Virus record (IMG/VR): IMGVR_UViG_2671180903_000014
Coordinates: 1-12,227 of that record
DNA length: 12,227 bases
DNA from: a virus
Taxonomy: Duplodnaviria > Heunggongvirae > Uroviricota > Caudoviricetes
Direction: 5' to 3' (one strand)
Below are positions 1 to 10,223 of the stretch, piece by piece. The notes below the pieces were generated by a model. The model made no database searches and was not told the origin of the DNA. It saw nothing but the letters and a program-made list of their open reading frames with translations. Each line of letters begins with the position of its first letter. Position 1 is the first letter of the stretch. Both the position numbers and the translations under genes were made by a program.

Positions 1-1461
1 ATGAAAAAATTACTGCATCTTTTTTTCCCGCTCTCGCTGCGGGTACGTTTTCTGTTAGCAACGGCAGCAGTAGTATTGGTGCTTTCGCTTGCCTACGGAA
101 TGGTTGCGCTGATCGGTTATAGCGTCAGTTTCGATAAAACCACGTTTCGGCTGTTACGTGGCGAGAGCAATCTGTTCTATACCCTTGCGAAGTGGGAAAA
201 CAATAAGTTGCATGTCGAGTTACCCGAAAATATCGACAAGCAAAGCCCCACCATGACGCTAATTTATGATGAGAACGGGCAGCTTTTATGGGCGCAACGT
301 GACGTGCCCTGGCTGATGAAGATGATCCAGCCTGACTGGCTGAAATCGAATGGTTTTCATGAAATTGAAGCGGATGTTAACGATACCAGCCTCTTGCTGA
401 GTGGAGATCATTCTATACAGCAACAGTTGCAGGAAGTGCGGGAAGATGATGACGACGCGGAGATGACCCACTCGGTGGCGGTAAACGTCTACCCGGCAAC
501 ATCGCGGATGCCAAAGTTAACCATTGTGGTGGTGGATACCATTCCGGTGGAGCTAAAAAGTTCCTATATGGTCTGGAGCTGGTTTATCTATGTGCTCTCA
601 GCCAATCTGCTGTTAGTGATCCCGCTGCTGTGGGTCGCCGCCTGGTGGAGTTTACGCCCCATCGAAGCCCTGGCAAAAGAAGTCCGCGAACTGGAAGAAC
701 ATAACCGCGAATTGCTCAATCCAGCCACAACGCGAGAACTGACCAGTCTGGTACGAAACCTGAACCGACTGTTAAAAAGTGAACGCGAACGTTACGACAA
801 ATATCGTACGACGCTCACCGACCTGACCCATAGTCTGAAAACGCCACTGGCGGTGCTGCAAAGTACGCTGCGTTCTCTGCGTAGTGAGAAGATGAGCGTC
901 AGTGATGCTGAGCCGGTAATGCTGGAGCAAATCAGCCGCATTTCACAGCAAATTGGCTACTACCTGCATCGTGCCAGTATGCGCGGCGGGACATTGCTTA
1001 GCCGCGAGCTGCATCCGGTCGCCCCACTGCTGGACAATCTCACCTCGGCGCTGAACAAAGTGTATCAACGCAAAGGGGTCAATATCTCTCTCGATATTTC
1101 GCCAGAGATCAGCTTTGTCGGTGAGCAGAACGATTTTGTCGAGGTGATGGGCAACGTGCTGGATAATGCCTGTAAATATTGCCTCGAGTTTGTCGAAATA
1201 TCTGCAAGGCAAACAGACGAGCATCTCTATATTGTGGTCGAGGATGATGGCCCCGGTATTCCCTTAAGCAAGCGAGAGGTCATTTTCGACCGTGGTCAAC
1301 GGGTTGATACTTTACGCCCTGGGCAAGGTGTAGGGCTGGCGGTAGCCCGCGAAATCACCGAGCAGTATGAGGGTAAAATCGTCGCCGGAGAGAGCATGCT
1401 GGGCGGTGCGCGGATGGAGGTGATTTTTGGTCGCCAGCATTCTGCGCCGAAAGATGAATAA
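1..1461 (+). CDS. phoQ: Sensor histidine kinase PhoQ of the PhoP/PhoQ two-component system
   Basis: 486-aa ORF with N-terminal transmembrane segment, periplasmic acidic patch EDDDDAE, second transmembrane segment, HAMP region, H-box [12 protein letters not shown] and ATPase motifs (DNACKY, DDGPGI, GQGVGL); matches enterobacterial PhoQ from memory. Confidence 0.95.
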
Positions 1462-1972
1462 ATATGTCCTTTTATCACCACAGCAAGGCAACCAATTGAT
1501 TTAATTAAACAACTCACACTGCAAAAAGTGCTAAAAACAGCAAATTGACTACACCATTAACTACACCGTTCGGTGCACTGTATGAAACAACGTTGAACAA
1601 ATAGACACAAGAAATATACAGGCGGGTAATCTTTCCAGGGGGAAGCGCACCAATTCATGAGGGGCGTTAATGTCGATATGGGGATCCCCATAACGGGGCT
1701 ACCAGATTTTTTTTCCGGTTAACTGTTAATCAGGCTGGTGGGCTTTACCTGTTCGGTAGGTGTTATGATTATCGTAATACCTTTCCCCCAATGGGGTAAA
1801 AGCTCCAACCGTAACGATGTTCGTTATGGTTGCCTTGATGGTCTGAGTGGTCATTTTGACCATTCAGCCAATGACCTTAATCAGAATTTTTCGCTAAAAA
1901 ATGACGTTGGCCACGTCATCCGGAAAGCACAAAATCACGTCGATTTTTAATGAACGGTTAAACCGTCTTTTT

Positions 1973-2007
1973 GTCACGGTGTGTCACTGGTTGTCACTCT
2001 CCGTCAC
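1973..2007. repeat. Four direct copies of (T)GTCAC spaced exactly 10 bp apart
   Basis: GTCAC at 1973, 1983, 1993 and 2003, in non-coding DNA downstream of phoQ; resembles tandem arm-type recombinase sites (lambda Int arm consensus contains AGTCAC) or another phased binding array. Confidence 0.6.
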
Positions 2008-2096
2008 GATTGAGGTGGTGGACATTCTGCCCGACCGCGCATTTTTGCGCTATCGGGAATATCAAACAGTTACCGCGCCGACTTCCTCAAATTGAG

Positions 2097-2239
2097 GTTT
2101 CCGAAAATATCAGCGGGTTAGCGATTAAGCTGACGAGTAATTAAACTGCGAAAATTTCGTAGTTTGTGACTATCTGAAAGATAGTCGGTTGTTCCGGCCT
2201 CAGCCGTTGGCTGTTTCCGAAAATATCAGTAGGTTAGGC
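2097..2239. repeat. Pair of ~26-bp direct repeats (GTTTCCGAAAATATCAG..GGTTAG) 115 bp apart
   Basis: 2097-2124 and 2212-2239 differ at 2-3 positions; palindromes lie between them (GACTATCT-gaa-AGATAGTC at 2169-2187; CCAAAGCTCA-aaaa-TGAGCTTTGG at 2240-2263). Confidence 0.6.
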
Positions 2240-2277
2240 CAAAGCTCAAAAATGAGCTTTGGAACAATATCAACAAG

Positions 2278-2559
2278 TTACCGCCGTAACCGCTCCGGCT
2301 TCTTCCAGTGGTACGTAATTTTCTCCGTTTCCCGATACAGTGCCACGCGGCGATTGTAGGCCAGCATTTCAAGAACGCGGATCCGTATGTTGCGCATATC
2401 CACATCATTAAGCTGGATACCATCACGGCGCATCACCTCAGCAACAACACGCGCATAATTTTCGGCTGTCACGCTGTCCGGCTGCGTGGCCTGTTCGTCA
2501 GTCTGCTGGCTGATTCCACCAGCACGGCGGATTAATCCCAGTATTTCGGCTTCTGTCAT
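2278..2559 (-). CDS. Hypothetical 93-aa protein
   Basis: ATG at 2559 with upstream GGGTG; charged, protein-like composition; the overlapping plus-strand ORF looks like antisense. No family recognised. Confidence 0.4.
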   Translation of the reverse strand: MTEAEILGLIRRAGGISQQTDEQATQPDSVTAENYARVVAEVMRRDGIQLNDVDMRNIRIRVLEMLAYNRRVALYRETEKITYHWKKPERLRR

Positions 2560-2592
2560 TGTGCACCCATCGTTCTGATTGTCTGGTGTCGT

Positions 2593-2795
2593 CGGGTCCT
2601 TCCTGGAATTATGGACCCGTTACGGGGCGGCGACCTCGCGGTTTTTATCTGTTTATGAAAATTTTCCGGCAAAAGTCAGATCCGTTCTTCTTCTCTGTAA
2701 CAGACTGTTTAACAATGAAAATATTAAAAAAAGAAAGGATCTGACACGAGGCATTTTAGCCAGAAAATGCCATTATCAGATCCTTTCTCATTTTT
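2593..2795 (+). other. Lambda-type cos site 'cos-A' (cosQ, cosN, cosB) in plus orientation
   Basis: GGGTCCTTCC..GTTACG|GGGCGGCGACCT|CGCGGTTTTT..TTATGAAAATTTTCCGG..CCGTTCTTCTTC closely follows the lambda right-end/left-end junction as recalled; the 12-nt cohesive-end sequence is at 2625-2636. Three R-site-like repeats GATCC(G/T)TTCT follow (2681-2695 plus, 2730-2745 inverted, 2777-2789 plus), with an A/T-rich IHF-like stretch between the first two. Confidence 0.8.
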
Positions 2796-2815
2796 GTTCA
2801 ATAATTGCGCGTCTG

Positions 2816-3358
2816 TTACTCGCCTTTCTTCTGTAGCAACTTTTCCGGTACGTTTCCGGTTGTTTCTTTCAAGTAATCAGCCAGTATCTGTGGGAGGTTG
2901 TCGGCAACTCTGGCACTGGCATTACAGGCTTTAACCACTTCCCTTTTAAGCCTATCCAGCATGGCGGGGGTAATCTGTGGGAAGCTCCTTTGCATAGTAA
3001 GCGGGAGGCTGTCCATGATTGATGAAATCTGACTCGCCAGCTTTGAAAGCGCGTACAGGCAAAACTCAGTATCAATCACGTCACCGCGATCGCGCTCGTT
3101 TTTAAGTTCCTGCGCCTCCGCCTGTGCTGTCAGTAATCTGATCCTGACTCGTAAGAGTTCATCATCATCAATATCGCCTTTGTCGTTTGTAAGCTGGCTA
3201 ATTGCATTGTTAACCCTATTGTCTATCACGCTGGCAACATCATAAAACGCCTCACGGCCTTTACGTTCAACGGGAGTCACTCCCCACTTGTCGAACGCTG
3301 TCGCACTTACACGGCAGCTTTTCGCCATGTTTTTTTTGTTCATCAGGTGCGATTTCAT
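2816..3358 (-). CDS. Terminase small subunit, lambda Nu1-like
   Basis: Residues LLTAQAEAQELKNERDRGDVIDTEFCLYALSKLASQISSIMDSLPLTMQRSFP align with lambda Nu1 (LTRAQADAQELKNARDSAEVVETAFCTFVLSRIAGEIASILDGLPLSVQRRFP); N-terminus NKK..W..G..PV matches the Nu1 DNA-binding region. Start may be ATG 3358 or ATG 3343. Confidence 0.85.
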   Translation of the reverse strand: MKSHLMNKKNMAKSCRVSATAFDKWGVTPVERKGREAFYDVASVIDNRVNNAISQLTNDKGDIDDDELLRVRIRLLTAQAEAQELKNERDRGDVIDTEFCLYALSKLASQISSIMDSLPLTMQRSFPQITPAMLDRLKREVVKACNASARVADNLPQILADYLKETTGNVPEKLLQKKGE

Positions 3359-3399
3359 TAATACACCAACTTAATTACTGCTTCAGGTTGGTGTATTGT

Positions 3400-3534
3400 T
3401 TGCATCTTTCCCTTTTTATTCATAAAGATAGATCAAACAACGAAACCACCACCCCCCCCCTGAAAAGGCTCATAAATAGCGAAAAACCGCTAGGTCGCCG
3501 CCCCGTAACGGGCCATAATTCCAGGAAGGACCCG
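3400..3534 (-). other. Second lambda-type cos site 'cos-B' (cosQ, cosN, degenerate cosB) in minus orientation
   Basis: Minus strand reads GGGTCCTTCCTGGAATTATGGCCCGTTACG|GGGCGGCGACCT|AGCGGTTTTTCGCTATTTATGA and then diverges, including a G9 run; cohesive-end sequence at 3492-3503. The 53-bp stretch 3482-3534 is an inverted repeat of 2593-2646 with one mismatch and one 1-bp indel. Confidence 0.75.
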
Positions 3535-3535
3535 T

Positions 3536-3557
3536 AAAAAAGCCGGATTTCTCCGGC
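3536..3557 (-). terminator. Rho-independent terminator after the 137-aa gene
   Basis: Minus strand GCCGGAGAAATCCGGC hairpin followed by TTTTTT; 6 bp past the stop of the 137-aa ORF. Confidence 0.7.
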
Positions 3558-3563
3558 CTTGTC

Positions 3564-3977
3564 TCAGATGGTTTTCAGTATGCGATCGATGTCGCCGTCA
3601 TCGCCCTGGTTTCTGCCATCGTATGCCATGCCAGCTGATACGGCTTGCGGGCTGTGCATGTCCATAAAGTTTTCAAAGGCTGCGGTAAGTTCCGGCGCAA
3701 CCTTCGGACGTTCCTGCTCTATGGTCATGCTAAGGATGCTTTTAGCCGTACCAACATCGATACAAGGCACGTTTGCCATTGCACGCAACAGCGGCTGATA
3801 GTCTTTATGCTCATGAAGCGCCATAATCGCATCAGCGCGCGGCTTGTCCTGCTCTTCCAGTTTGTTTAGTTGATATACGGCCTCATAGGTTGATAAACCT
3901 CTGTCAGCCATTGCCCGCGCTTCGACTTTAAATTTACTCGCCAGCGGTAGCGTCATGATGCTTTCATTCGTTGCCAT
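3564..3977 (-). CDS. Hypothetical 137-aa acidic protein, last gene of the capsid operon
   Basis: Strong RBS (AGGGGGA) before ATG 3977; 12 bp after the gpD-like stop; followed by a terminator. No family recognised; not lambda FI or W by recalled sequence. Confidence 0.55.
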   Translation of the reverse strand: MATNESIMTLPLASKFKVEARAMADRGLSTYEAVYQLNKLEEQDKPRADAIMALHEHKDYQPLLRAMANVPCIDVGTAKSILSMTIEQERPKVAPELTAAFENFMDMHSPQAVSAGMAYDGRNQGDDGDIDRILKTI

Positions 3978-3989
3978 CGTTCCCCCTGC

Positions 3990-4325
3990 TTATCGGGCCA
4001 GCGGCTGAACGGATACGCCGGAACCCGCAAAGGCGGCGCATTTTTTCGCATCGGTGTCGACGCTCTCAGGCCAGTTAACGGCGGCAATATTGAATATCCC
4101 CGTCTTGTAACACTGTGCTGATTTCTGCTTTGACGTGCCCACAGGGTACGAGGTCAGATAAACAGCCTTGCCAGATTCCTGACCATCCCACGGCTTAAAC
4201 TCGCCATTGTCTGCCAGCATCAGCGGGGTAAATTCCTGAATAACGCCAGCATCAGCGGCAAAATGTACCAACGTCGTGGATACCTGCTGACTGCCTGCAA
4301 ATAACTCAATGTATGGAGTGTCCAT
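3990..4325 (-). CDS. Head decoration protein, lambda gpD family
   Basis: 111 aa; TPLML, WDG, YKTGIF, WPE and AFAG motifs align with lambda gpD (TPLML..WDG..YKSGTF..WPE..AFAG); RBS GGGGGGA. Confidence 0.85.
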   Translation of the reverse strand: MDTPYIELFAGSQQVSTTLVHFAADAGVIQEFTPLMLADNGEFKPWDGQESGKAVYLTSYPVGTSKQKSAQCYKTGIFNIAAVNWPESVDTDAKKCAAFAGSGVSVQPLAR

Positions 4326-4337
4326 AGAATCCCCCCG

Positions 4338-5393
4338 TTAACCAATTTTGACGGTAACAAATTTGCGAATATCTGCCGGTACCGGCTGCGGTGCACTGTG
4401 TGTCTGCACGTACTCAATCGCCGGATCGCCGTCCTCAATCCAGTTTTTCGGGTAAAACATGTTTTGTGTTGCGCCCGTTCTTACCGCTTCCTGATCCATT
4501 ATCGCACCATAGGCCACCAGCCCTTTATTGTTGGTGTTACCCAGGACCAGCAAATCAGGCTCAAGGAAATATTTTTCGGTACCATCGCTGTCAGTGTATT
4601 TGCCGGAATAGACGATAAGGGCCAGATCACCAAGATAGCCTTTAAAGCTCACCACTTCGCCCAGGTTTTTACAGGCCAGTTCGGCGGCGGATTCTGAACC
4701 ACGGGAAAGATCGTACAGCTCACGGAATTTTTTAAAGCTGCCTAATGTGCGCCATACCTCAGCGCCCATAATCATGACGTTTGCGGGGCAACCAGCCTGA
4801 TCAGCATAAAGCTCGATGTCATAGATTGGGTCGTGCATGTCTTTATCCTGCTCGGACCATTTTTTACCCTTGGCCTGCTCTATGATGCAGTTTTCCGGTA
4901 TTTTCCAGTCGATTTCATAGCGTTCTATGCCTTCGCCCTCAATGATGTTTTTTCCGGTCGTTACCGCATTCACCGCCAGCCATTCCACGCGTGCCTTAAT
5001 GGCGTTTATCTGGCGGCGCATGTTGCCAGTAATCAGGCGCATACGGCGATAGGTAGGGTCGTTAAGCTGTGCCGGATCTTCTCCAGCCATGCGCATGATG
5101 GTTTTCGTTGGATCGATTTCGTGCTTTGGCTTCATGTAGCCAGGTTTGATTGTGCTGGTTTCGTACCCTTTATCGCGCTGAACCTGGCTACCCACCATAG
5201 GCGAACAAAACGCCGACATGGTGACTTCTTCAATGTCCAGGGTATCCAGCATGATGTTTTGCGTGCTGAATGTCGCCACGTTCGGGAAAAACAGCGTGGT
5301 AAACAGAGGGCTGAATTTAAAATCCGCAATATCCCCGCGATTCAGGTACATGAAAAGCTGGTTAGTGTTAAGTGCCGTTGCTTTGCCTGCCAT
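4338..5393 (-). CDS. Major capsid protein, lambda gpE family
   Basis: 351 aa; collinear with lambda gpE (FKF.PLF..LFF, PGY.KPKHE, DP.YRR.R, RDK..DP..DIE.YA, YKG..GD.A.VYSG, VLGNT, YPKNW, GDPA.E); RBS GGGGGTGA. Confidence 0.9.
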   Translation of the reverse strand: MAGKATALNTNQLFMYLNRGDIADFKFSPLFTTLFFPNVATFSTQNIMLDTLDIEEVTMSAFCSPMVGSQVQRDKGYETSTIKPGYMKPKHEIDPTKTIMRMAGEDPAQLNDPTYRRMRLITGNMRRQINAIKARVEWLAVNAVTTGKNIIEGEGIERYEIDWKIPENCIIEQAKGKKWSEQDKDMHDPIYDIELYADQAGCPANVMIMGAEVWRTLGSFKKFRELYDLSRGSESAAELACKNLGEVVSFKGYLGDLALIVYSGKYTDSDGTEKYFLEPDLLVLGNTNNKGLVAYGAIMDQEAVRTGATQNMFYPKNWIEDGDPAIEYVQTHSAPQPVPADIRKFVTVKIG

Positions 5394-5599
5394 TATTCAC
5401 CCCCATAATTTTTATGCATCCCAAGCGCCGCAAGTAAATAAGAGCGTACAAGTGAACCTATCGACGGCTCCGGCGTCATCAGCGGATCCAGTCCAGCCGC
5501 AACGCCAGCTTCATAGTTTTTTTTGTGGCGCTGCTTGAGCACCTCCACGATTTCGGGGCTTATGTACACCGAAACACCGCCTTTTTTCTCTTCAGCCAT
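5393..5599 (-). CDS. Hypothetical 68-aa protein, first gene of the capsid operon
   Basis: ATG at 5599 preceded by AAGAGGAA; its stop overlaps the capsid start codon (TAATG), suggesting translational coupling. No family recognised. Confidence 0.45.
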   Translation of the reverse strand: MAEEKKGGVSVYISPEIVEVLKQRHKKNYEAGVAAGLDPLMTPEPSIGSLVRSYLLAALGMHKNYGGE

Positions 5600-5633
5600 A
5601 GTAAGAAATTCCTCTTCGACTAAAAAAATCATA

Positions 5634-5684
5634 ACTGGATGTTTATCCAGTCCTGATTATAATCAGAATTGCATTTTATGCAAT
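5634..5684 (-). promoter_or_regulatory. Sigma70-like promoter overlapped by three adjacent palindromic operators
   Basis: Minus-strand -35 TTGCAT (5683-5678), 16-bp spacer, -10 TATAAT (5661-5656). Palindromes: ACTGGAT-gttt-ATCCAGT (5634-5651), CTGATTATAATCAG (5653-5666), ATTGCAT-ttt-ATGCAAT (5668-5684). Confidence 0.55.
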
Positions 5685-5764
5685 GATATTGAGTTATGTT
5701 GCAAATTATGAAATGATTATCCCGATCACGAACGCCAGTGCATCCAAAAACCTCATATGCAAAA

Positions 5765-5830
5765 GCCCGATAAGAACCCTCTGACCTTATCGGGCTTTTT
5801 TTGGGCGCAAAAAAGCCGGATTGCTCCGGC
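5765..5830. terminator. Tandem terminators between the 74-aa gene and the capsid promoter
   Basis: Hairpin GCCCGATAAG..CTTATCGGGC with T7 on the plus side and A4 on the other (5765-5802), then minus-strand GCCGGAGCAATCCGGC plus T6 (5809-5830). Confidence 0.65.
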
Positions 5831-5850
5831 TATGTGTGCTGTGTGCTGGC

Positions 5851-6075
5851 TCAGTCTCTGATCTCTTTCAGAAATTCTATCAATGCATCTATCTGTTCAG
5901 GATTTACCGCCAGCATTTCACCGGATAGAGCACATCTCACAAAACCATGCTGATCCTTTTCAATCAGTGCGCCCGTCTCCAGGAATGCGCGGTAATCATT
6001 GATGCTCATCGTCTCCATGTTGTCAGCATGGTATTTATCACGCTGTTTTAATATCTCATCAAATTTCATCGGCAT
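5851..6075 (-). CDS. Hypothetical 74-aa protein, monocistronic between terminators
   Basis: ATG at 6075 preceded by AGAGGAAAAA; terminators on both sides. No family recognised; only one Cys, so not an Ogr/Delta zinc finger. Confidence 0.5.
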   Translation of the reverse strand: MPMKFDEILKQRDKYHADNMETMSINDYRAFLETGALIEKDQHGFVRCALSGEMLAVNPEQIDALIEFLKEIRD

Positions 6076-6171
6076 TGTTTTTTTCCTCTGTTGTGTCTGT
6101 TTGTTTCAGATAGTAACTATGCCTGACCGTGACGAAAACCCGGTAATGCGCCATACCGTTTCAACTGGTGC

Positions 6172-6194
6172 AAAAAAAGCCGGATTTCTCCGGC
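6172..6194 (-). terminator. Rho-independent terminator after the PerC-like gene
   Basis: Minus strand GCCGGAGAAATCCGGC followed by T7; near-identical to the terminators at 3536-3557 and 5809-5830. Confidence 0.7.
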
Positions 6195-6201
6195 TGTTTG
6201 A

Positions 6202-6474
6202 TTAGCTGTCCTGGTAATTGCGCCATATTTCATCACCAGCACCATCTATACCCATTTCGGCATAAGTGCGATCGACTGCCTTTTTCAGGTCTCCGAAATT
6301 ATCCGGCGGCTCCGGTGCCCTCTGTGCCTTCCTTGAACATTCCAGCCGTCGCATCGTGATGTGATGCCGTTCCTTGTCTGTCTCCACCAGCTGCATGACT
6401 TCACCCCATCGCGCCGCCGCCCTCCGGTAAAAGCCTTTCGCCTCCAGTTCCTCCGCTATGCGGTCATGTACCAT
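6202..6474 (-). CDS. Small PerC-family-like regulator (about 90 aa)
   Basis: Start taken at ATG 6474 (MVHDRIAEELEAKGFYRRAAARWGEVM), 11 nt after the SSB stop with GGGGGTG as RBS; the A..LE..G.YRRAA.RW motif resembles PerC-family proteins from memory. The longer 130-aa ORF call would overlap SSB. Confidence 0.45.
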   Translation of the reverse strand: MVHDRIAEELEAKGFYRRAAARWGEVMQLVETDKERHHITMRRLECSRKAQRAPEPPDNFGDLKKAVDRTYAEMGIDGAGDEIWRNYQDS

Positions 6475-6484
6475 CGTCACCCCC

Positions 6485-6895
6485 TCAGAACGAAATATCA
6501 TCACCGTAAGAGTCATCGCCTCCCGCTGGTGGCTGATTACCCTGTGTGCCTGTGGTTTTGCGTCTGTTCCCGCCTGGACGTGCCGCGCGGGCACTGATTA
6601 CGCTGTCTGCGATAACCTGCCAGCCCTGCCGCGTTTCTCCGTTCTGTCCGGTCCACTGGCTTACCTGCATCGTGCCGGATACGCTGGCAACATCGCCTTT
6701 TTGATGTTTAGCCAGGAAGTCGGCCTGTTTGCCAAATGCGATGACCGATAACCATAACGTCGCCTGTCCGTCCTGTGCCTGGCTGCATGGCAAAGATACC
6801 GCCATACGCGCCAGCGTCATCGGTGTGCCCTTGCTGGTCTGTTTTACCTGCGGGTCGTCCACCAGCCGCCCGTAAGCGGCTATCTGTGCCGTCAT
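6485..6895 (-). CDS. Single-stranded DNA-binding protein, SSB-like
   Basis: 136 aa; OB-fold-like N-terminal region, Gly/Pro/Gln-rich linker and acidic C-terminal tip GDDISF (compare E. coli SSB DDDIPF). Confidence 0.65.
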   Translation of the reverse strand: MTAQIAAYGRLVDDPQVKQTSKGTPMTLARMAVSLPCSQAQDGQATLWLSVIAFGKQADFLAKHQKGDVASVSGTMQVSQWTGQNGETRQGWQVIADSVISARAARPGGNRRKTTGTQGNQPPAGGDDSYGDDISF

Positions 6896-7143
6896 AATTC
6901 CACCTCTCCGGTTTTAACGTTGATGGTTGTTACCTGTTCCGCTTCGGCAATCTCCCGTTCTGTCAGCGTGGCAAAGTTTGCCGCCGCCGTGGTCATGAAT
7001 GCGCTTATCAGGTCGGGATGTTCCTTCGCGTATCCTTCCCGCGTGTGGCGGTCTATCGTTCTGATTGCCACCTTTAAGGTGTGCTCAGTCATGTCTAACG
7101 CTTTATATTTTGGCTCTGTTCTGTCTCTGCGTTTTTGGGTCAT
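6892..7143 (-). CDS. Hypothetical small protein between the origin and ssb
   Basis: The longest ORF begins at a GTG (7173) inside the iteron array; ATG 7143 or ATG 7092 are more plausible starts. Stop overlaps the ssb start (ATGA). Confidence 0.35.
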   Translation of the reverse strand: MTQKRRDRTEPKYKALDMTEHTLKVAIRTIDRHTREGYAKEHPDLISAFMTTAAANFATLTEREIAEAEQVTTINVKTGEVEL

Positions 7144-7149
7144 TTCTCG

Positions 7150-7350
7150 CAACCTCTCACTTTTTCGCCTCACTTTTTCAAGCGTCTCACTTCGTCGCAG
7201 TTGGGATTTTCGGTTTTTCTATGTGTGTGTTTCATAAGTATTTTTTTACCCCTCACTTTTGAGGATGTATACAGGTCGAAAAGTGAGGGAGAGCGGGCTA
7301 ATTTTGGCCCTCTTTCTATCCCCCTCGCTTTTGCTCCTCACTTTTATAGC
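7150..7350. repeat. Iteron array with a central A/T-rich stretch; candidate replication origin
   Basis: Seven copies of CCTCAC(T/G)TTT (7156, 7169, 7186, 7250, 7323, 7337 direct; 7279 inverted) flanking an A/T-rich stretch at 7201-7248, immediately 3' of the rep gene. Confidence 0.6.
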
Positions 7351-8743
7351 GGCGCTACATCATCCCCATCGATACGAATAACCCCATCTTTTTCCAGCTT
7401 GTACAGCCAGCGCCGGAAGTTTTTCATTTCATACCCCAGCTTTTTCATGTCATCACGTAACAGCGGGATCGTGCACTTGTCGCCGTTCTGTGTGCGTGAA
7501 CGGATGCACCCCCATAGCGCGGTATGGTTTTCCGTCTTGTTCCCTGCCTCCTCGATGCGCTCCAGTTCAACAGGAGGGCGCGGATCATCCACCACCACCA
7601 GCGACGTGATTAATTCACCGTCAGCGTCGGTAAAAAGCTCCACCACGCGTAAGTCATATGCGGCTTCTTTGAGTTCCTCCGCGTCCTTCATTTTGGTGCA
7701 TGAGATAACCAGCGCTTCGCTTCCTGCGTCCTCCCTGCGTATCCGGTATTCAGCATCCAGCGAAGCACGAAATGCACTGGAACCGCGCGCGCCTTTCGTC
7801 TCATCCTTGCCGGAATGGTGAACCACCAGCACCGTGGCCCCTGTGCGTCGTTTCAGTTCGTCACAACCACGGATAAACGCCCCATATCACGGGAATCATT
7901 TTCATCATTCCCACCAAAGCAACGCGCCAGCGTATCCAGAATAATCATGCGTACAGGTTTACCCGTTTCCCGCTCCACCTGACGGGCAGCGATAACCATT
8001 TCATCAACATCAAGCGGGGCAGCCGGAAAGATGGGGCGGTTTACCAGATACAGATTTTTCACCTGCTCATCGTGCACAACCTCCCAGGCTTTTACACGAC
8101 GCGGAACACCTATACCGCCTTCACCAACCACATAGAGAACCGCACCATGTGCAACCCTGCGGCCTCCCCACTGGCGACCAGTGGCAACATGGCACGCCCA
8201 CGATCCGGCAAGGAATGATTTATAGGACCCGCTAGCCCCGTATATGCTGCATAGCGATACCGCCGGAATAATCCCCTTAACCACGTAATCCAGTTGCGTG
8301 TCGTATCCGGTAGATCCAACGCTCATCGGTAGCGTGGTTTTTCGCTGGTGGTTTTTTTCTTCCGCCGGCTCTTTCCCGCGCACCCGTTCCAGGTATTCGC
8401 GCCAGTTCTCCCGCATATGGCTGTGCATCCCTTCGGGGTAATAATTCGCATCAGTTACACCCGCCGCCGCCAGCTTGTGCGCAATGGCATTAATATTTGA
8501 TGGCCTGATGTGGCCTGCCTTGTACAGCCGGACACAATAGCGCCCCTCGTCGATGATTCTCAGGTCTGCCAGTTCATCCAGTTGATCATCAGCCAGCACA
8601 ACGGGAGGCACATTATCGCCAGCCAGTCGCCCGTCCTGTTCCTGCCACTGTTTCGCATGTGCCCAGGCATCACTACCCGCAAAAATAATGACTTCGGTCA
8701 TCTTGTCGTAAGGCTGTTTTTTTAAGTTCGGTGCGCTTTTCAT
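7344..8743 (-). pseudogene. RepA-like AAA ATPase (RecA-fold replication helicase) split by a frameshift
   Basis: The upstream ORF (8743-7853) ends ..ILDTLARCFGGNDENDSRDMG; the downstream ORF continues in another frame with AFIRGCDELKRRTGATVLVVHHSGKDETKG. Joined, they give the typical DEN..M......L....G..VL.VHH..K motif. The frames meet in the C4/G4 run at 7880-7883; one extra G would restore a ~470-aa protein. Confidence 0.75.
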
Positions 8744-8761
8744 TTCTTGCCCCTGAATCCG

Positions 8762-9208
8762 TTAAAATCTGGCCTGAACTGCCGGAGGCGTAGGCCATTC
8801 AATATCTGGCGCACTGGAGGTATCAACCAGCTCCAGTGCATCCAGATAATCCAGCCACAAATTATATTGCGCCAGTTCCTCACCTTTCAGACGACCAATA
8901 GCGGCTTTACCGGGCCATTGCTTACTGTTCATGTATTCGTTGGCCTGGTTAATTAGTAGCTGTCTTTCTGATTCAGTAATTTCAATAAGCTCTTCATGCG
9001 TGGGTGGAGGAATATCTGCCCACGCAGGCAGCCCATCATCTCCGGCAATACGGATTTTTCCTTGTGGCGGTTCAGCCATAAACTCACTGATAATATTTTG
9101 ATTTACTTCCTTAGCGTCTGATAAATCCCATCCCTCTGATTTATATTTATCAATCATATCCACAGGGAAAAAAGCATTATGCCTTGCGCTATAAACATAT
9201 TCGTTCAT
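8762..9208 (-). CDS. Tail fibre assembly protein (Tfa)
   Basis: N-terminus MNEYVYSARHNAFFP and C-terminus ..VDTSSAPDIEWPTPP match Tfa proteins (lambda Tfa ends ..VDTSTAPDIEWP); RBS AGGGTGA before ATG 9208. The longest ORF starts at a GTG (9217). Confidence 0.85.
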   Translation of the reverse strand: MNEYVYSARHNAFFPVDMIDKYKSEGWDLSDAKEVNQNIISEFMAEPPQGKIRIAGDDGLPAWADIPPPTHEELIEITESERQLLINQANEYMNSKQWPGKAAIGRLKGEELAQYNLWLDYLDALELVDTSSAPDIEWPTPPAVQARF

Positions 9209-9228
9209 ATAAATCACCCTGAATAAAA

Positions 9229-9642
9229 TTACTCACCAACAGCCCACCAACTGTAATTCATCGATACCGTGTCGCTGGTTGATGACGTTCTGTAAGCAGA
9301 ATTAAAGCCGGTTAACGTTGGGCCTTCTGCAGTCATCACGAACCCTCGCCCAGCGCCTAAAGGCGCACCGCCATCACCAGAATGAGTAAGCATGGCGCAG
9401 TCCGCTTTTTTGGGGAAAGGGATGCTGAATGTAATTCTCATTGTTTGCGTCGATAATGTCGGCGTAACCGCACCACGACCATATTGCAGGATTTTCCCGT
9501 TGGGTAATTTCATCCATCCATCACCACTGGCAAAAGAGGCCATGTCCGGTATCTGATTTTCCCCTGTCCCCACATCCCGTTTTGCCGCTTCTCCCAAACC
9601 AACGTTTATGAAAATGCAGAAATAACGAGCAAATGGCATCAT
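9229..9642 (-). pseudogene. Tail-fibre C-terminal variable segment without its constant N-terminal part (alternate cassette of an invertible segment)
   Basis: Lies between the crossover site and tfa, reading away from pin, as for the alternate Sv' cassette of the Mu G segment and the e14 P segment; no tail-fibre N-terminal domain upstream. Confidence 0.5.
9589..9614. other. Candidate Pin crossover site (pix-like)
   Basis: TTCTCCCAAACCAACGTTTATGAAAA matches the recalled hixL site TTCTTGAAAACCAAGGTTTTTGATAA at 20 of 26 positions; sits just upstream of pin inside the tail-fibre fragment. Confidence 0.55.
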
Positions 9643-9668
9643 TCCTGCTTTTGTCAGGGGGATCTACC

Positions 9669-10223
9669 ATGCTTATTGGCTATGTACGCGTATCAACAAA
9701 TGACCAGAACACAGATCTACAACGTAATGCGCTGAACTGTGCAGGATGCGAGCTGATTTTTGAAGACAAGATAAGCGGTACAAAGTCCGAAAGGCCGGGA
9801 CTGAAAAAACTGCTCAGGACATTATCGGCAGGTGACACGCTGGTGGTCTGGAAACTGGACCGGCTGGGGCGCAGTATGCGGCATCTTGTCGTGCTGGTGG
9901 AGGAGTTGCGCGAACGAGGCATCAACTTTCGTAGTCTGACGGATTCAATTGATACCAGTACCCCAATGGGGCGCTTTTTCTTTCATGTGATGGGTGCCCT
10001 GGCTGAAATGGAGCGTGAACTGATTGTTGAAAGAACAAAAGCTGGACTGGAAGCTGCTCGCGCACAGGGACGAATTGGTGGACGTCGTCCCAAACTTACA
10101 CCAGAACAATGGGAACAGGCCGGACGATTAATTGCATCAGGAGTTCCTCGCCAGAAGGTGGCGATTATCTATGATGTTGGTGTGTCAACTTTGTATAAGA
10201 GGTTTCCTGCAGGGGATAAATAA
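9669..10223 (+). CDS. pin: Serine DNA invertase Pin (Hin/Gin/Cin family)
   Basis: MLIGYVRVSTNDQNTDLQRNAL..VVWKLDRLGRS..GINFRSLTDSIDTS.PMGRFFFHVMGALAEMERELI..GRIGGR with C-terminal HTH; RBS AGGGGGA before ATG 9669. The listed ORF start at 9633 is an upstream extension. Confidence 0.92.
   Translation: MLIGYVRVSTNDQNTDLQRNALNCAGCELIFEDKISGTKSERPGLKKLLRTLSAGDTLVVWKLDRLGRSMRHLVVLVEELRERGINFRSLTDSIDTSTPMGRFFFHVMGALAEMERELIVERTKAGLEAARAQGRIGGRRPKLTPEQWEQAGRLIASGVPRQKVAIIYDVGVSTLYKRFPAGDK

What the first reader, a model, noticed from the sequence alone, without database searches (positions are those of the whole stretch)
7150..7350. Iteron-type origin directly downstream of the Rep gene
Seven CCTCAC(T/G)TTT repeats in two clusters around an A/T-rich core, placed 3' of a RepA-like helicase gene, is the layout of rep-ori modules in phage-inducible chromosomal islands, and supports autonomous replication of the element after excision.
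Basis: partly seen in the sequence, partly recalled or inferred. Interest (0 to 1): 0.55.

Follow-up and report, generated by a model that had tools for sequence, protein, structure and literature searches.

The report
Phage-satellite replication origin, stranded copy
The repeats are real and mark the replication origin of a known type of E. coli phage satellite (a PICI), but this copy sits beside a broken initiator gene in a rearranged island, so it is an ordinary and probably inactive example.

Summary
The 200-bp gap (7144-7343) between the stop of a minus-strand RepA-family helicase gene and the next gene carries seven CTCACTT-core repeats. Four are perfect CCTCACTTTT and one is inverted. 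They lie in two clusters around a 30%-GC core; chance predicts under one match in the whole window.

The element is a PICI at the roxA-phoQ site. Its Rep is identical, apart from the frameshift, to that of the catalogued EcCIRM12579. It is a sister of EcCICFT073, whose rep-ori was shown experimentally to replicate.

In 73 related loci from many Enterobacterales, iteron-like motifs occur only from -20 to +200 of the rep stop, with the same spacing and orientation. The core sequence changes in all copies together, and it tracks the Rep C-terminal ~65 residues, a predicted winged helix. Between this PICI type and EcCICFT073, the Rep core and the origin are swapped as one cassette inside otherwise 82-94% identical DNA.

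In this window rep has a 1-nt frameshift, and the integrase/AlpA half is missing because of a rearrangement at 8765/8766. The origin is intact but could fire only with Rep supplied in trans. It is a new member of a known kind, of low to moderate interest.

The parts
7344..8743 (-). rep: RepA-family (AAA_25) helicase-initiator gene, a pseudogene here. A 1-nt deletion in a C5 run near 7880-7884 splits it into ORFs 7853-8743 (296 aa) and 7344-7832 (162 aa).
   Evidence: ORFs. Alignment to the intact 466-aa gene of E. coli O103:H2 12009 shows a single missing base. Pfam AAA_25 at residues 148-315, E=2.4e-43. Closest solved structure by sequence is the RSF1010 RepA helicase 1g8y, E=0.005.
7347..7550 (-). 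Codons for Rep residues ~399-466: predicted winged-helix C-terminal domain, the inferred iteron reader.
   Evidence: In the AlphaFold2 model of the 162-aa ORF, the last ~60 residues have block-mean pLDDT about 89-97 (the block before them 74) and form three helices plus a beta-hairpin. Foldseek matches are all winged-helix domains (SelB, MarR/Fur/ArsR families, ORC and MCM8 WH), rmsd 2-3 A over 60-75 columns, but E>0.03. Iteron type tracks this domain rather than the helicase core.
7336..7345 (+). Iteron 1 (CCTCACTTTT; AAAAGTGAGG on the rep-sense strand), overlapping the rep stop codon; canonical position +1.
7323..7332 (+). Iteron 2 (CCTCGCTTTT, one mismatch); canonical position +13.
7279..7288 (-). 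Iteron 3, the only inverted copy; canonical position +56(-).
7250..7289 (.). 40-bp palindromic element: inverted iteron pair (11-bp perfect arms) around a conserved TGTATACA centre.
   Evidence: Inverted repeat I3. The centre is largely conserved (most of its columns invariant) in four diverged E. coli origins.
7251..7260 (+). Iteron 4 (CCTCACTTTT); canonical position +85, bordering the AT-rich core.
7204..7249 (.). A/T-rich, T-skewed core and presumed DNA-unwinding element. TGTTTCATAAG and a run of seven T followed by A are invariant among diverged E. coli origins.
   Evidence: 30% GC. Low duplex stability. Mean GC trough of 0.28-0.37 at +90..+129 in 73 loci. Invariant columns.
7185..7194 (+). 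Iteron 5 (TCTCACTTCG, weakest of the seven).
7168..7177 (+). Iteron 6 (CCTCACTTTT); canonical position +169.
7155..7164 (+). Iteron 7 (TCTCACTTTT); canonical position +181.
7195..7203 (+). Decayed iteron (TCGCAGTTG), aligned to TCTCACTTG in variant origins.
7145..7153 (+). Decayed iteron (TCTCGCAAC), aligned to CCTCACTCA in variant origins. It overlaps the ribosome-binding region of the next gene.
7072..8378 (-). Replicon cassette: Rep residues ~123-466, the whole iteron intergenic region, and the first ~72 nt of the next gene. It has no DNA similarity to EcCICFT073, while the flanks are 82-94% identical.
   Evidence: blastn of the O103 12009 element against the CFT073 element, converted to window coordinates.
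6892..7143 (-). Downstream 83-aa gene (phrog_1231, unknown function), followed by SSB (6485-6895) and PerC. It is not the iteron partner.
   Evidence: RefSeq annotation of the identical DNA. It is 73% identical to the EcCICFT073 homologue although the iterons are unrelated. PHROG hit.

Best explanation
The 200-bp intergenic region 7144-7343 is the replication origin (ori) of a Gram-negative phage-inducible chromosomal island (PICI) of the EcCIRM12579 type. The inferred mechanism, by analogy with SaPI Rep and EcCICFT073 Pri-Rep, is as follows. After AlpA-driven induction of an intact island, the 466-aa Rep is made. Rep has an N-terminal domain, a RecA-type AAA_25 helicase core and a C-terminal winged helix. 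The winged helices bind the 9-10-bp iterons (AAAAGTGAGG on the rep-sense strand). The iterons form two arrays, at +1, +13, +56 (inverted) and +85 on the rep side and at about +152, +169 and +181 on the far side. Binding on both sides strains and melts the 45-bp A/T-rich core between the arrays. The helicase then loads itself there without DnaA, and no DnaA box or IHF consensus is present. Host or helper enzymes then copy the excised circle. What is shown here: the repeats, their statistical excess, their position, their conservation and co-variation, and the winged-helix prediction. What is inferred: binding, melting and firing. In this particular window the ori sequence is intact. It matches intact O103:H2 12009 base for base across the aligned region, and the 204-bp ori stretch is 100% identical in intact O157:H7 islands. 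But rep carries a frameshift, and the integrase, alpA and DUF4222 side has been separated from it by a rearrangement. This copy is therefore a stranded origin that could fire only if a matching Rep were supplied in trans.
For: Repeat excess and the AT dip. Element identity: the same DNA in E. coli O103:H2 12009 lies between phoQ and roxA, in the order int, alpA, icd-like, DUF4222, rep, this intergenic region, 83-aa gene, ssb, perC, capsid, decoration, terS. EcCICFT073 has the same site and gene order. EcCIRM12579, named in Table S1 of PMC6092414, encodes the identical Rep WP_000833618.1. Literature: PICI origins lie immediately 3' of rep with two iteron sets around an AT-rich region, and the EcCICFT073 rep-ori drives plasmid replication. 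SaPI Reps read iterons through a C-terminal winged helix. Conserved grammar: in 73 loci with Rep 50-72% identical, generalised iteron matches fall only between -20 and +200 of the rep stop. There are plus-strand peaks at -20..+19 and +70..+89, a minus-strand peak at +40..+59, an AT trough at +90..+129, and plus-strand peaks at +130..+199, with almost nothing in the flanks. Co-variation: the core is AAGTGAGG, AAGTGCGGC, AAGTGGGGGA, AAGTGGGT or AAATGAGG depending on lineage. All copies changed together from CTCAC to CCCAC in one E. coli variant while the spacers diverged. One helicase cluster (87-100% identical through about residue 390 in the L035-L029 pair) splits into two C-terminal clusters with two iteron types. 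For example, L035 versus L029 drops to 47-73% identity only after residue ~405. Cassette: Rep core and ori are replaced together relative to EcCICFT073, whose iterons are TGTCTACC. The flanks, the Rep N-terminal 125 aa (62% identical) and the downstream gene (73% identical) are shared. Winged-helix model. For the relic status of this copy.
Against: No experiment on this ori or this Rep type was found. The tested ori (EcCICFT073) belongs to a non-homologous Rep core with unrelated iterons. The helicase is RecA/AAA_25-type rather than the SF3 type of SaPI Rep, so self-loading is assumed and not known. Iteron classes also follow overall phylogeny: within-class identity exceeds between-class identity in every Rep region. 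The C-terminal assignment therefore rests on a few natural chimeras. Foldseek E-values for the winged helix are not significant. The AT core is only the third least stable 40-mer in 3 kb. Only one iteron is inverted, which differs from the SaPI description of opposed iterons on each side.
Confidence: 0.82

Rival explanations
1. The repeats are operator sites of a promoter for the downstream hyp-ssb-perC-capsid operon. They would be bound by a regulator other than Rep, such as AlpA or the 83-aa protein, and not serve as a replication origin.
For: The region lies directly upstream of a co-oriented gene (6892-7143), and a decayed repeat overlaps its ribosome-binding region. Repeated and inverted short motifs are typical of operators.
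Against: No sigma-70-like promoter was found on either strand in 6850-7500, and no terminator on the coding strand, so read-through from rep is likely. The alpA side and the 83-aa protein are shared with EcCICFT073 at 73-92% identity, although the iterons are unrelated. Iteron type follows the Rep C-terminal domain. The array is anchored to the rep stop codon in 73 loci.
Confidence: 0.05
2. The repeats bind Rep, but mainly for autoregulation, copy-number control or incompatibility (handcuffing or titration). The true start of synthesis would be elsewhere.
For: Iterons in plasmid systems serve both initiation and control (established knowledge of iteron plasmids). A frameshift allele that leaves a free-standing 162-aa ORF with the winged helix occurs on several contigs.
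Against: The conserved AT-rich, low-stability core sits between the arrays. The matching architecture in SaPIs and EcCICFT073 was shown to be the functional origin. No second iteron cluster occurs in the roughly 6.7 kb around rep in the relatives.
Confidence: 0.06
3. The repeats are a packaging signal (pac or cosB-like TerS binding sites) for the island's Nu1-type small terminase.
For: The island encodes a Phage_Nu1 TerS. Lambda cosB consists of repeated R sites.
Against: The array is about 4 kb from terS. The same Rep and iterons occur next to a different head module, a ClpP-protease/capsid fusion, in L089. The iterons change with Rep, not with the packaging genes.
Confidence: 0.02
4. The repeats are a chance or low-complexity feature of a T-rich intergenic region, without function.
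For: The region is T-rich and short motifs recur easily. Three of the seven copies are imperfect.
Against: 0 of 200 shuffles reach the observed count. Position, spacing and orientation are conserved across genera while the spacers diverge, and all copies change in concert.
Confidence: 0.01

Closest known systems
EcCICFT073 pri-rep-ori (E. coli PICI; Fillol-Salom et al. 2018, PMC6092414)
   Same: Same chromosomal site (roxA/ycfD-phoQ) and same gene order. The rest of the island is 82-94% identical in DNA. The ori occupies the same intergenic slot after rep, with iteron sets around an AT-rich stretch. The Rep N-terminal 125 aa are 62% identical.
   Different: The Rep core is a 584-aa 'DNA primase family' protein unrelated to the AAA_25 helicase here, and its iterons are TGTCTACC-type. 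Only that ori has been tested experimentally.
EcCIRM12579 (E. coli O55:H7 PICI listed in Table S1 of PMC6092414) and the equivalent islands of O157:H7 and O103:H2
   Same: Identical Rep protein WP_000833618.1, apart from the frameshift, and the same gene order with a 200-bp rep-to-next-gene gap (the ori sequence of EcCIRM12579 itself was not compared). The ori stretch is 100% identical in O157:H7 islands and matches O103:H2 12009 base for base. This is the same element type.
   Different: Those copies are intact, with int, alpA and a full-length rep. The window copy has a frameshifted rep and has lost its int/alpA side. Whether Fig. 2a of the paper shows this iteron set could not be checked, because figures are not held.
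SaPI Rep-ori (Staphylococcus aureus pathogenicity islands; Ubeda et al., Qiao et al. 2022, PMC9371898)
   Same: The ori lies immediately after rep. It has 6-12 short iterons split around a central AT-rich region. A C-terminal winged helix reads the iterons. The initiator is also the helicase.
   Different: SaPI Reps are SF3/AAA+ helicases and their iterons are 5-6 nt. Here the core is RecA-type AAA_25, the iterons are 9-10 nt, and only one copy is inverted. This is analogy, not homology.
Satellite phage P4 alpha protein with ori and crr
   Same: The initiator combines a helicase with a C-terminal DNA-binding domain that recognises short repeats in the origin of an Enterobacterial phage satellite (own knowledge; mentioned).
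   Different: P4 alpha is a primase plus SF3 helicase. Its iterons are TGTTCACC-type (recalled, not checked here), in two separated sites, ori and crr. Here there is a single compact ori and no recognisable primase domain.
RSF1010/IncQ RepA helicase with oriV iterons
   Same: It is the closest solved structure by sequence for the helicase core (1g8y, E=0.005) and is in the same Pfam family, AAA_25.
   Different: In IncQ plasmids the iterons are read by a separate protein, RepC, and the helicase has no DNA-recognition domain (own knowledge). Here a winged helix is fused to the helicase.

Membership tests
PICI rep-ori module (functional class defined in SaPIs and EcCICFT073) | The origin lies immediately 3' of the replication initiator gene. 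| tested here: met
   The first iteron overlaps the rep stop codon (7336-7345 against 7344-7346). In 73 relatives the array starts at -20..+19 of the stop.
PICI rep-ori module (functional class defined in SaPIs and EcCICFT073) | Two sets of short iterons flank an AT-rich region. | tested here: met
   Four copies at 7251-7345, a 30%-GC core at 7200-7249, and three copies at 7155-7194. The same layout holds in relatives.
PICI rep-ori module (functional class defined in SaPIs and EcCICFT073) | [quoted passage not shown] | tested here: inconclusive
   Only one inverted copy (7279-7288) is present, on the rep-proximal side. The far side has direct copies only, although 18 of 73 loci show a minus-strand hit near +130.
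PICI rep-ori module (functional class defined in SaPIs and EcCICFT073) | The initiator carries a C-terminal winged-helix domain specific for its own iterons. | tested here: met
   The fold is predicted with block-mean pLDDT about 89-97 over the last ~60 residues, with winged-helix-only structural matches. Iteron type follows this domain in natural chimeras. Physical binding was not tested.
PICI rep-ori module (functional class defined in SaPIs and EcCICFT073) | The rep-ori segment alone drives autonomous replication. | not testable with these tools
   This needs cloning of an intact rep plus 7144-7343. Only the EcCICFT073 module has been tested.
SaPI Rep / D5-type Pri-Rep protein family (homology) | An SF3/AAA+ helicase core, with or without a fused primase. 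| tested here: not met
   The only Pfam hit is AAA_25. The nearest solved structure is RSF1010 RepA. The Rep core shows no significant similarity to the EcCICFT073 Rep core. PHROG hits are to RecA-type helicase modules of phage primase-helicases, and weakly to DnaB-like helicases.
Gram-negative PICI (element level) | Integrase, AlpA activator, unidirectional operon, rep-ori, capsid/terS module, and a dedicated attachment site. | tested here: met
   All are present in intact copies with identical rep-ori DNA (L001, L084, L092). The O103 12009 island is listed as a PICI in the supplement of PMC6092414. In the window itself int and alpA are absent, so the window holds only a fragment of such an element.
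Iteron plasmids (Rep_3 / RepA-WH1-WH2 initiators such as pPS10, F, RK2) | A Rep_3-family initiator, plus DnaA boxes beside the iterons. | tested here: not met
   No Rep_3 hit. No DnaA box with at most 1 mismatch in 7100-7400.
IncQ (RSF1010) replicon | Separate RepA helicase, RepB primase and iteron-binding RepC, with ~20-bp iterons. | tested here: not met
   Only the helicase core is shared. The neighbouring genes are DUF4222, an 83-aa protein, SSB and PerC. The iterons are 9-10 bp.

The most novel reading that the evidence does not exclude
The RepA(AAA_25)-winged-helix protein may define a second, uncharacterised class of satellite initiator-helicase. It is RecA/SF4-like rather than the SF3 type studied in SaPIs, P4 and EcCICFT073. 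Its origin grammar is fixed across Enterobacterales (+1, +13, +56 inverted, +85, AT core, +152 to +181). Its specificity appears to be re-programmed by swapping about 65 C-terminal residues together with a concerted change of all iterons. In addition, the recurrent frameshift allele seen here leaves a free-standing 162-aa ORF that ends in the winged helix. That product could act as an origin-binding competitor, giving incompatibility or immunity against incoming islands of the same specificity, rather than being mere decay.
Probability: 0.15. Interest if true: 0.5.

Novelty: new member of a known kind. Interest (0 to 1): 0.3.

Why it matters
PICIs spread virulence genes and anti-phage functions, and here the island carries a PerC-family regulator. 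Knowing the origin and what sets its specificity tells which islands can coexist, which can be cross-activated, and how to build or disable their replicons. The comparative result gives testable predictions: a fixed origin grammar, iterons changing in concert, and specificity following a swappable C-terminal winged helix. It concerns a Rep type that, as far as I could find, has not been studied biochemically. For this window the practical message is smaller. The origin is a correct annotation on a decayed, rearranged island. It should not be read as evidence of a mobile, self-replicating element in this strain.

Tried and rejected
- **Promoter and terminator scan of 6850-7500.** No sigma-70-like site was found, and only one terminator-like hairpin, on the non-coding strand. 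This gives no support to an operator or terminator reading.
- **Rfam scan of the whole window.** No hits.
- **DnaA-box and IHF consensus search in 7100-7400.** No hits.
- **Search for Rep alignment columns that separate the three main iteron classes.** No column passed at 85% consensus. All Rep regions were more alike within classes than between them, so global co-variation is confounded by phylogeny. I relied instead on natural chimeras and on the cassette boundary.
- **Phage database search with 6400-8800.** It matched only a 34-bp tail-fibre-assembly stretch, so the replicon is not that of a catalogued phage.
- **Foldseek of the C-terminal model.** The matches are consistently winged helices, but none is significant. 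The model of the first 90 residues of the fragment was poor.
- **Literature searches for this Rep type or iteron sequence.** Nothing was found beyond the 2018 PICI paper and its tables. Its Fig. 2a could not be read.
- **Search for the 8765/8766 junction in 5,426 complete E. coli genomes.** It is absent.

Full report
**Observation.** The stretch 7144-7343 is the gap between two minus-strand genes. These are a RepA-family helicase gene (7344-8743) and an 83-aa gene (6892-7143).

CCTCACTTTT with at most one mismatch occurs 7 times in the 12.2-kb window, and 6 of these lie in 7155-7345. Shuffles predict 0.82 matches, and none of 200 reaches 7. The core CTCACTT adds the copy at 7185-7194.

Four copies are perfect (7168, 7251, 7279 on the minus strand, 7336). 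Three are variants (7155, 7185, 7323). Two more are decayed (7145-7153, 7195-7203).

Three copies lie at 7155-7194 and four at 7251-7345. Between them is a core of 30% GC. That core is the third least stable 40-mer in 3 kb, about 2.9 sd below the mean. The copy at 7279-7288 is inverted. With 7250-7260 it forms an 11-bp perfect inverted repeat.

**What the element is.**
- The window opens with phoQ.
- DNA identical to 1853-8765 of the window lies between phoQ and roxA in E. coli O103:H2 12009 and O157:H7. There it forms an 11-kb island: integrase, AlpA, Icd-like, DUF4222, a 466-aa RepA-family helicase, this gap, the 83-aa gene, SSB, PerC, capsid-E homologue, decoration protein and Nu1-type TerS.
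- The prototype Gram-negative PICI, EcCICFT073, sits at the same site with the same gene order.
- EcCIRM12579, named in the supplementary table of Fillol-Salom et al. 2018, encodes the identical Rep protein.
[quoted passage not shown] It also shows that the EcCICFT073 rep-ori segment drives plasmid replication.

**Comparative test.** I fetched 80 loci encoding Rep relatives (50-72% identity) from species genomes of Xenorhabdus, Citrobacter, Kosakonia, Pantoea, Serratia, Pectobacterium, Morganella and others.
- In nearly all of them, the 300 bp after the rep stop carry repeated 8-mers. These cores are almost absent from the other ~6.7 kb of each locus.
- The layout is fixed relative to the stop codon. 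There are plus-strand copies near +1 and +13, a minus-strand copy near +56, a plus-strand copy near +85, an AT trough at +90 to +129, and plus-strand copies from +130 to +199 (73 loci).
- The core sequence differs by lineage: AAGTGAGG, AAGTGCGGC, AAGTGGGGGA, AAGTGGGT or AAATGAGG.
- Among four E. coli variants of the gap, the spacers have diverged. Yet every copy changed together from CTCAC to CCCAC in one strain. Two blocks of the AT core (TGTTTCATAAG and a run of seven T followed by A) stayed invariant, and the TGTATACA centre of the palindrome is largely conserved.
- Such concerted change is what is expected when one protein reads all the copies.

**Which protein reads them.**
- Between the window-type island and EcCICFT073, the DNA is 82-94% identical almost throughout. 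The exception is one block with no similarity: Rep residues ~123-466, the whole gap, and ~72 nt of the next gene (window 7072-8378).
- The EcCICFT073 block carries an unrelated 584-aa primase-family Rep core and TGTCTACC iterons.
- The Rep N-terminal 125 aa (62% identical), the alpA side and the downstream 83-aa protein (73% identical) are shared. None of them can set iteron specificity.
- Within the RepA family, one helicase cluster splits into two C-terminal clusters with two iteron types. L035 and L029 are 87-100% identical up to about residue 390, then fall to 47-73%.
- An AlphaFold2 model gives the last ~60 residues block-mean pLDDT of about 89-97 and a three-helix plus hairpin winged-helix fold. 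All structural neighbours are winged helices, though with non-significant E-values.
- The helicase core is AAA_25, nearest to RSF1010 RepA and to the helicase modules of phage primase-helicases.

**Mechanism (inferred).** Rep winged helices bind the two iteron arrays. The AT core between them melts, and the helicase loads itself. This is what has been shown for SaPI Reps. No DnaA box or IHF consensus is present. No promoter-like site, and no terminator on the coding strand, was found in the gap, so rep and the downstream genes are probably co-transcribed.

**State of this copy.**
- The ori matches intact O103:H2 12009 base for base, and the 204-bp ori stretch is 100% identical in intact O157:H7 islands.
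- rep lacks one base of a C5 run near 7880, which splits it into 296-aa and 162-aa ORFs.
- The same allele occurs on at least 9 contigs, some in otherwise complete islands.
- At 8765/8766 the island is joined to e14-type tfa, a tail-fibre fragment, pin and mcrA. Integrase, alpA and DUF4222 are therefore not next to rep.
- This junction is in none of 5,426 complete E. coli genomes.
- One draft genome has the same breakpoint but lacks 8766-9587.
- Gene orientations, compared with the CFT073 order, fit an inversion between the island and the e14 invertible region. This is an inference.
- This copy therefore cannot excise and replicate by itself.

**Rivals.** An operator for another regulator, a Rep-binding control site that is not the origin, a TerS packaging site, and chance are each disfavoured. 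The data against them are the cassette boundary, the co-variation, the anchoring of the array to the rep stop, and the presence of the same Rep and iterons next to a different head module.

**Novelty.** The kind of feature is established, and this island type is already catalogued. What I could not find in the literature is any experiment on this Rep class or its iterons. The conserved grammar and the C-terminal swap are modest additions. The verdict is a correct and ordinary annotation, a new member of a known kind, on a decayed island.

Noticed in passing
window 7880-7884 (rep), ORFs 7853-8743 and 7344-7832: The rep frameshift (C5 to C4) is not unique to this window. The exact 296-aa and 162-aa products occur on at least 9 contigs, including otherwise complete islands (L086, L087), and in named E. 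coli drafts such as 3-073-06_S1_C1. The 162-aa ORF starts with GTG and ends in the winged-helix domain.
   Followed up: partly
window 8765/8766 and 9587/9588: The island is fused, about 20 bp upstream of the rep start codon (8743), to the stop codon of an e14-type tail-fibre assembly gene (8762-9217). A tail-fibre fragment, pin (9633-10223), mcrA and ycgX follow. The junction is absent from 5,426 complete E. coli genomes. Draft L085 has the same left breakpoint but lacks 8766-9587. Orientations suggest a chromosomal inversion with one end in the Pin-invertible region.
   Followed up: partly
L003 (Xenorhabdus beddingii), +226 to +310 after the rep stop: After the AAGTGAGG-type array there is a second partial array of AAGTGGGG-type iterons at +226, +238, +282 (inverted) and +310. 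It repeats the +1/+13/+57/+85 grammar, as if half of an origin of a different specificity were placed in tandem.
   Followed up: no
window 8378-8743 (Rep residues 1-~122); L083 7242-7616: The N-terminal ~125 residues of Rep are shared (62% identity) between the RepA-helicase type and the unrelated primase-type Rep of EcCICFT073. They have no Pfam hit. This is a portable domain of unknown role that stays with the island backbone when the replicon cassette is exchanged.
   Followed up: partly
L089 (E. coli NCCP 13963), 1-3400: The same Rep-iteron module lies upstream of a ClpP-like protease/major-capsid fusion gene, which suggests a capsid-forming PICI (my inference from that gene alone). The replicon module thus appears to be shared between PICI and cf-PICI-like backbones.
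   Followed up: no
window 6202-6474 (PerC) and 6485-6895 (SSB): The island carries its own SSB directly after the origin, and a PerC-family transcriptional activator, which belongs to a family of virulence-gene regulators in pathogenic E. coli.
   Followed up: no
window 8767-8800: A 34-bp stretch at the 3' end of the tail-fibre assembly gene is 100% identical in P2, HK97, HK106, SfIV and several Klebsiella phages. It lies exactly at the rearrangement breakpoint.
   Followed up: no
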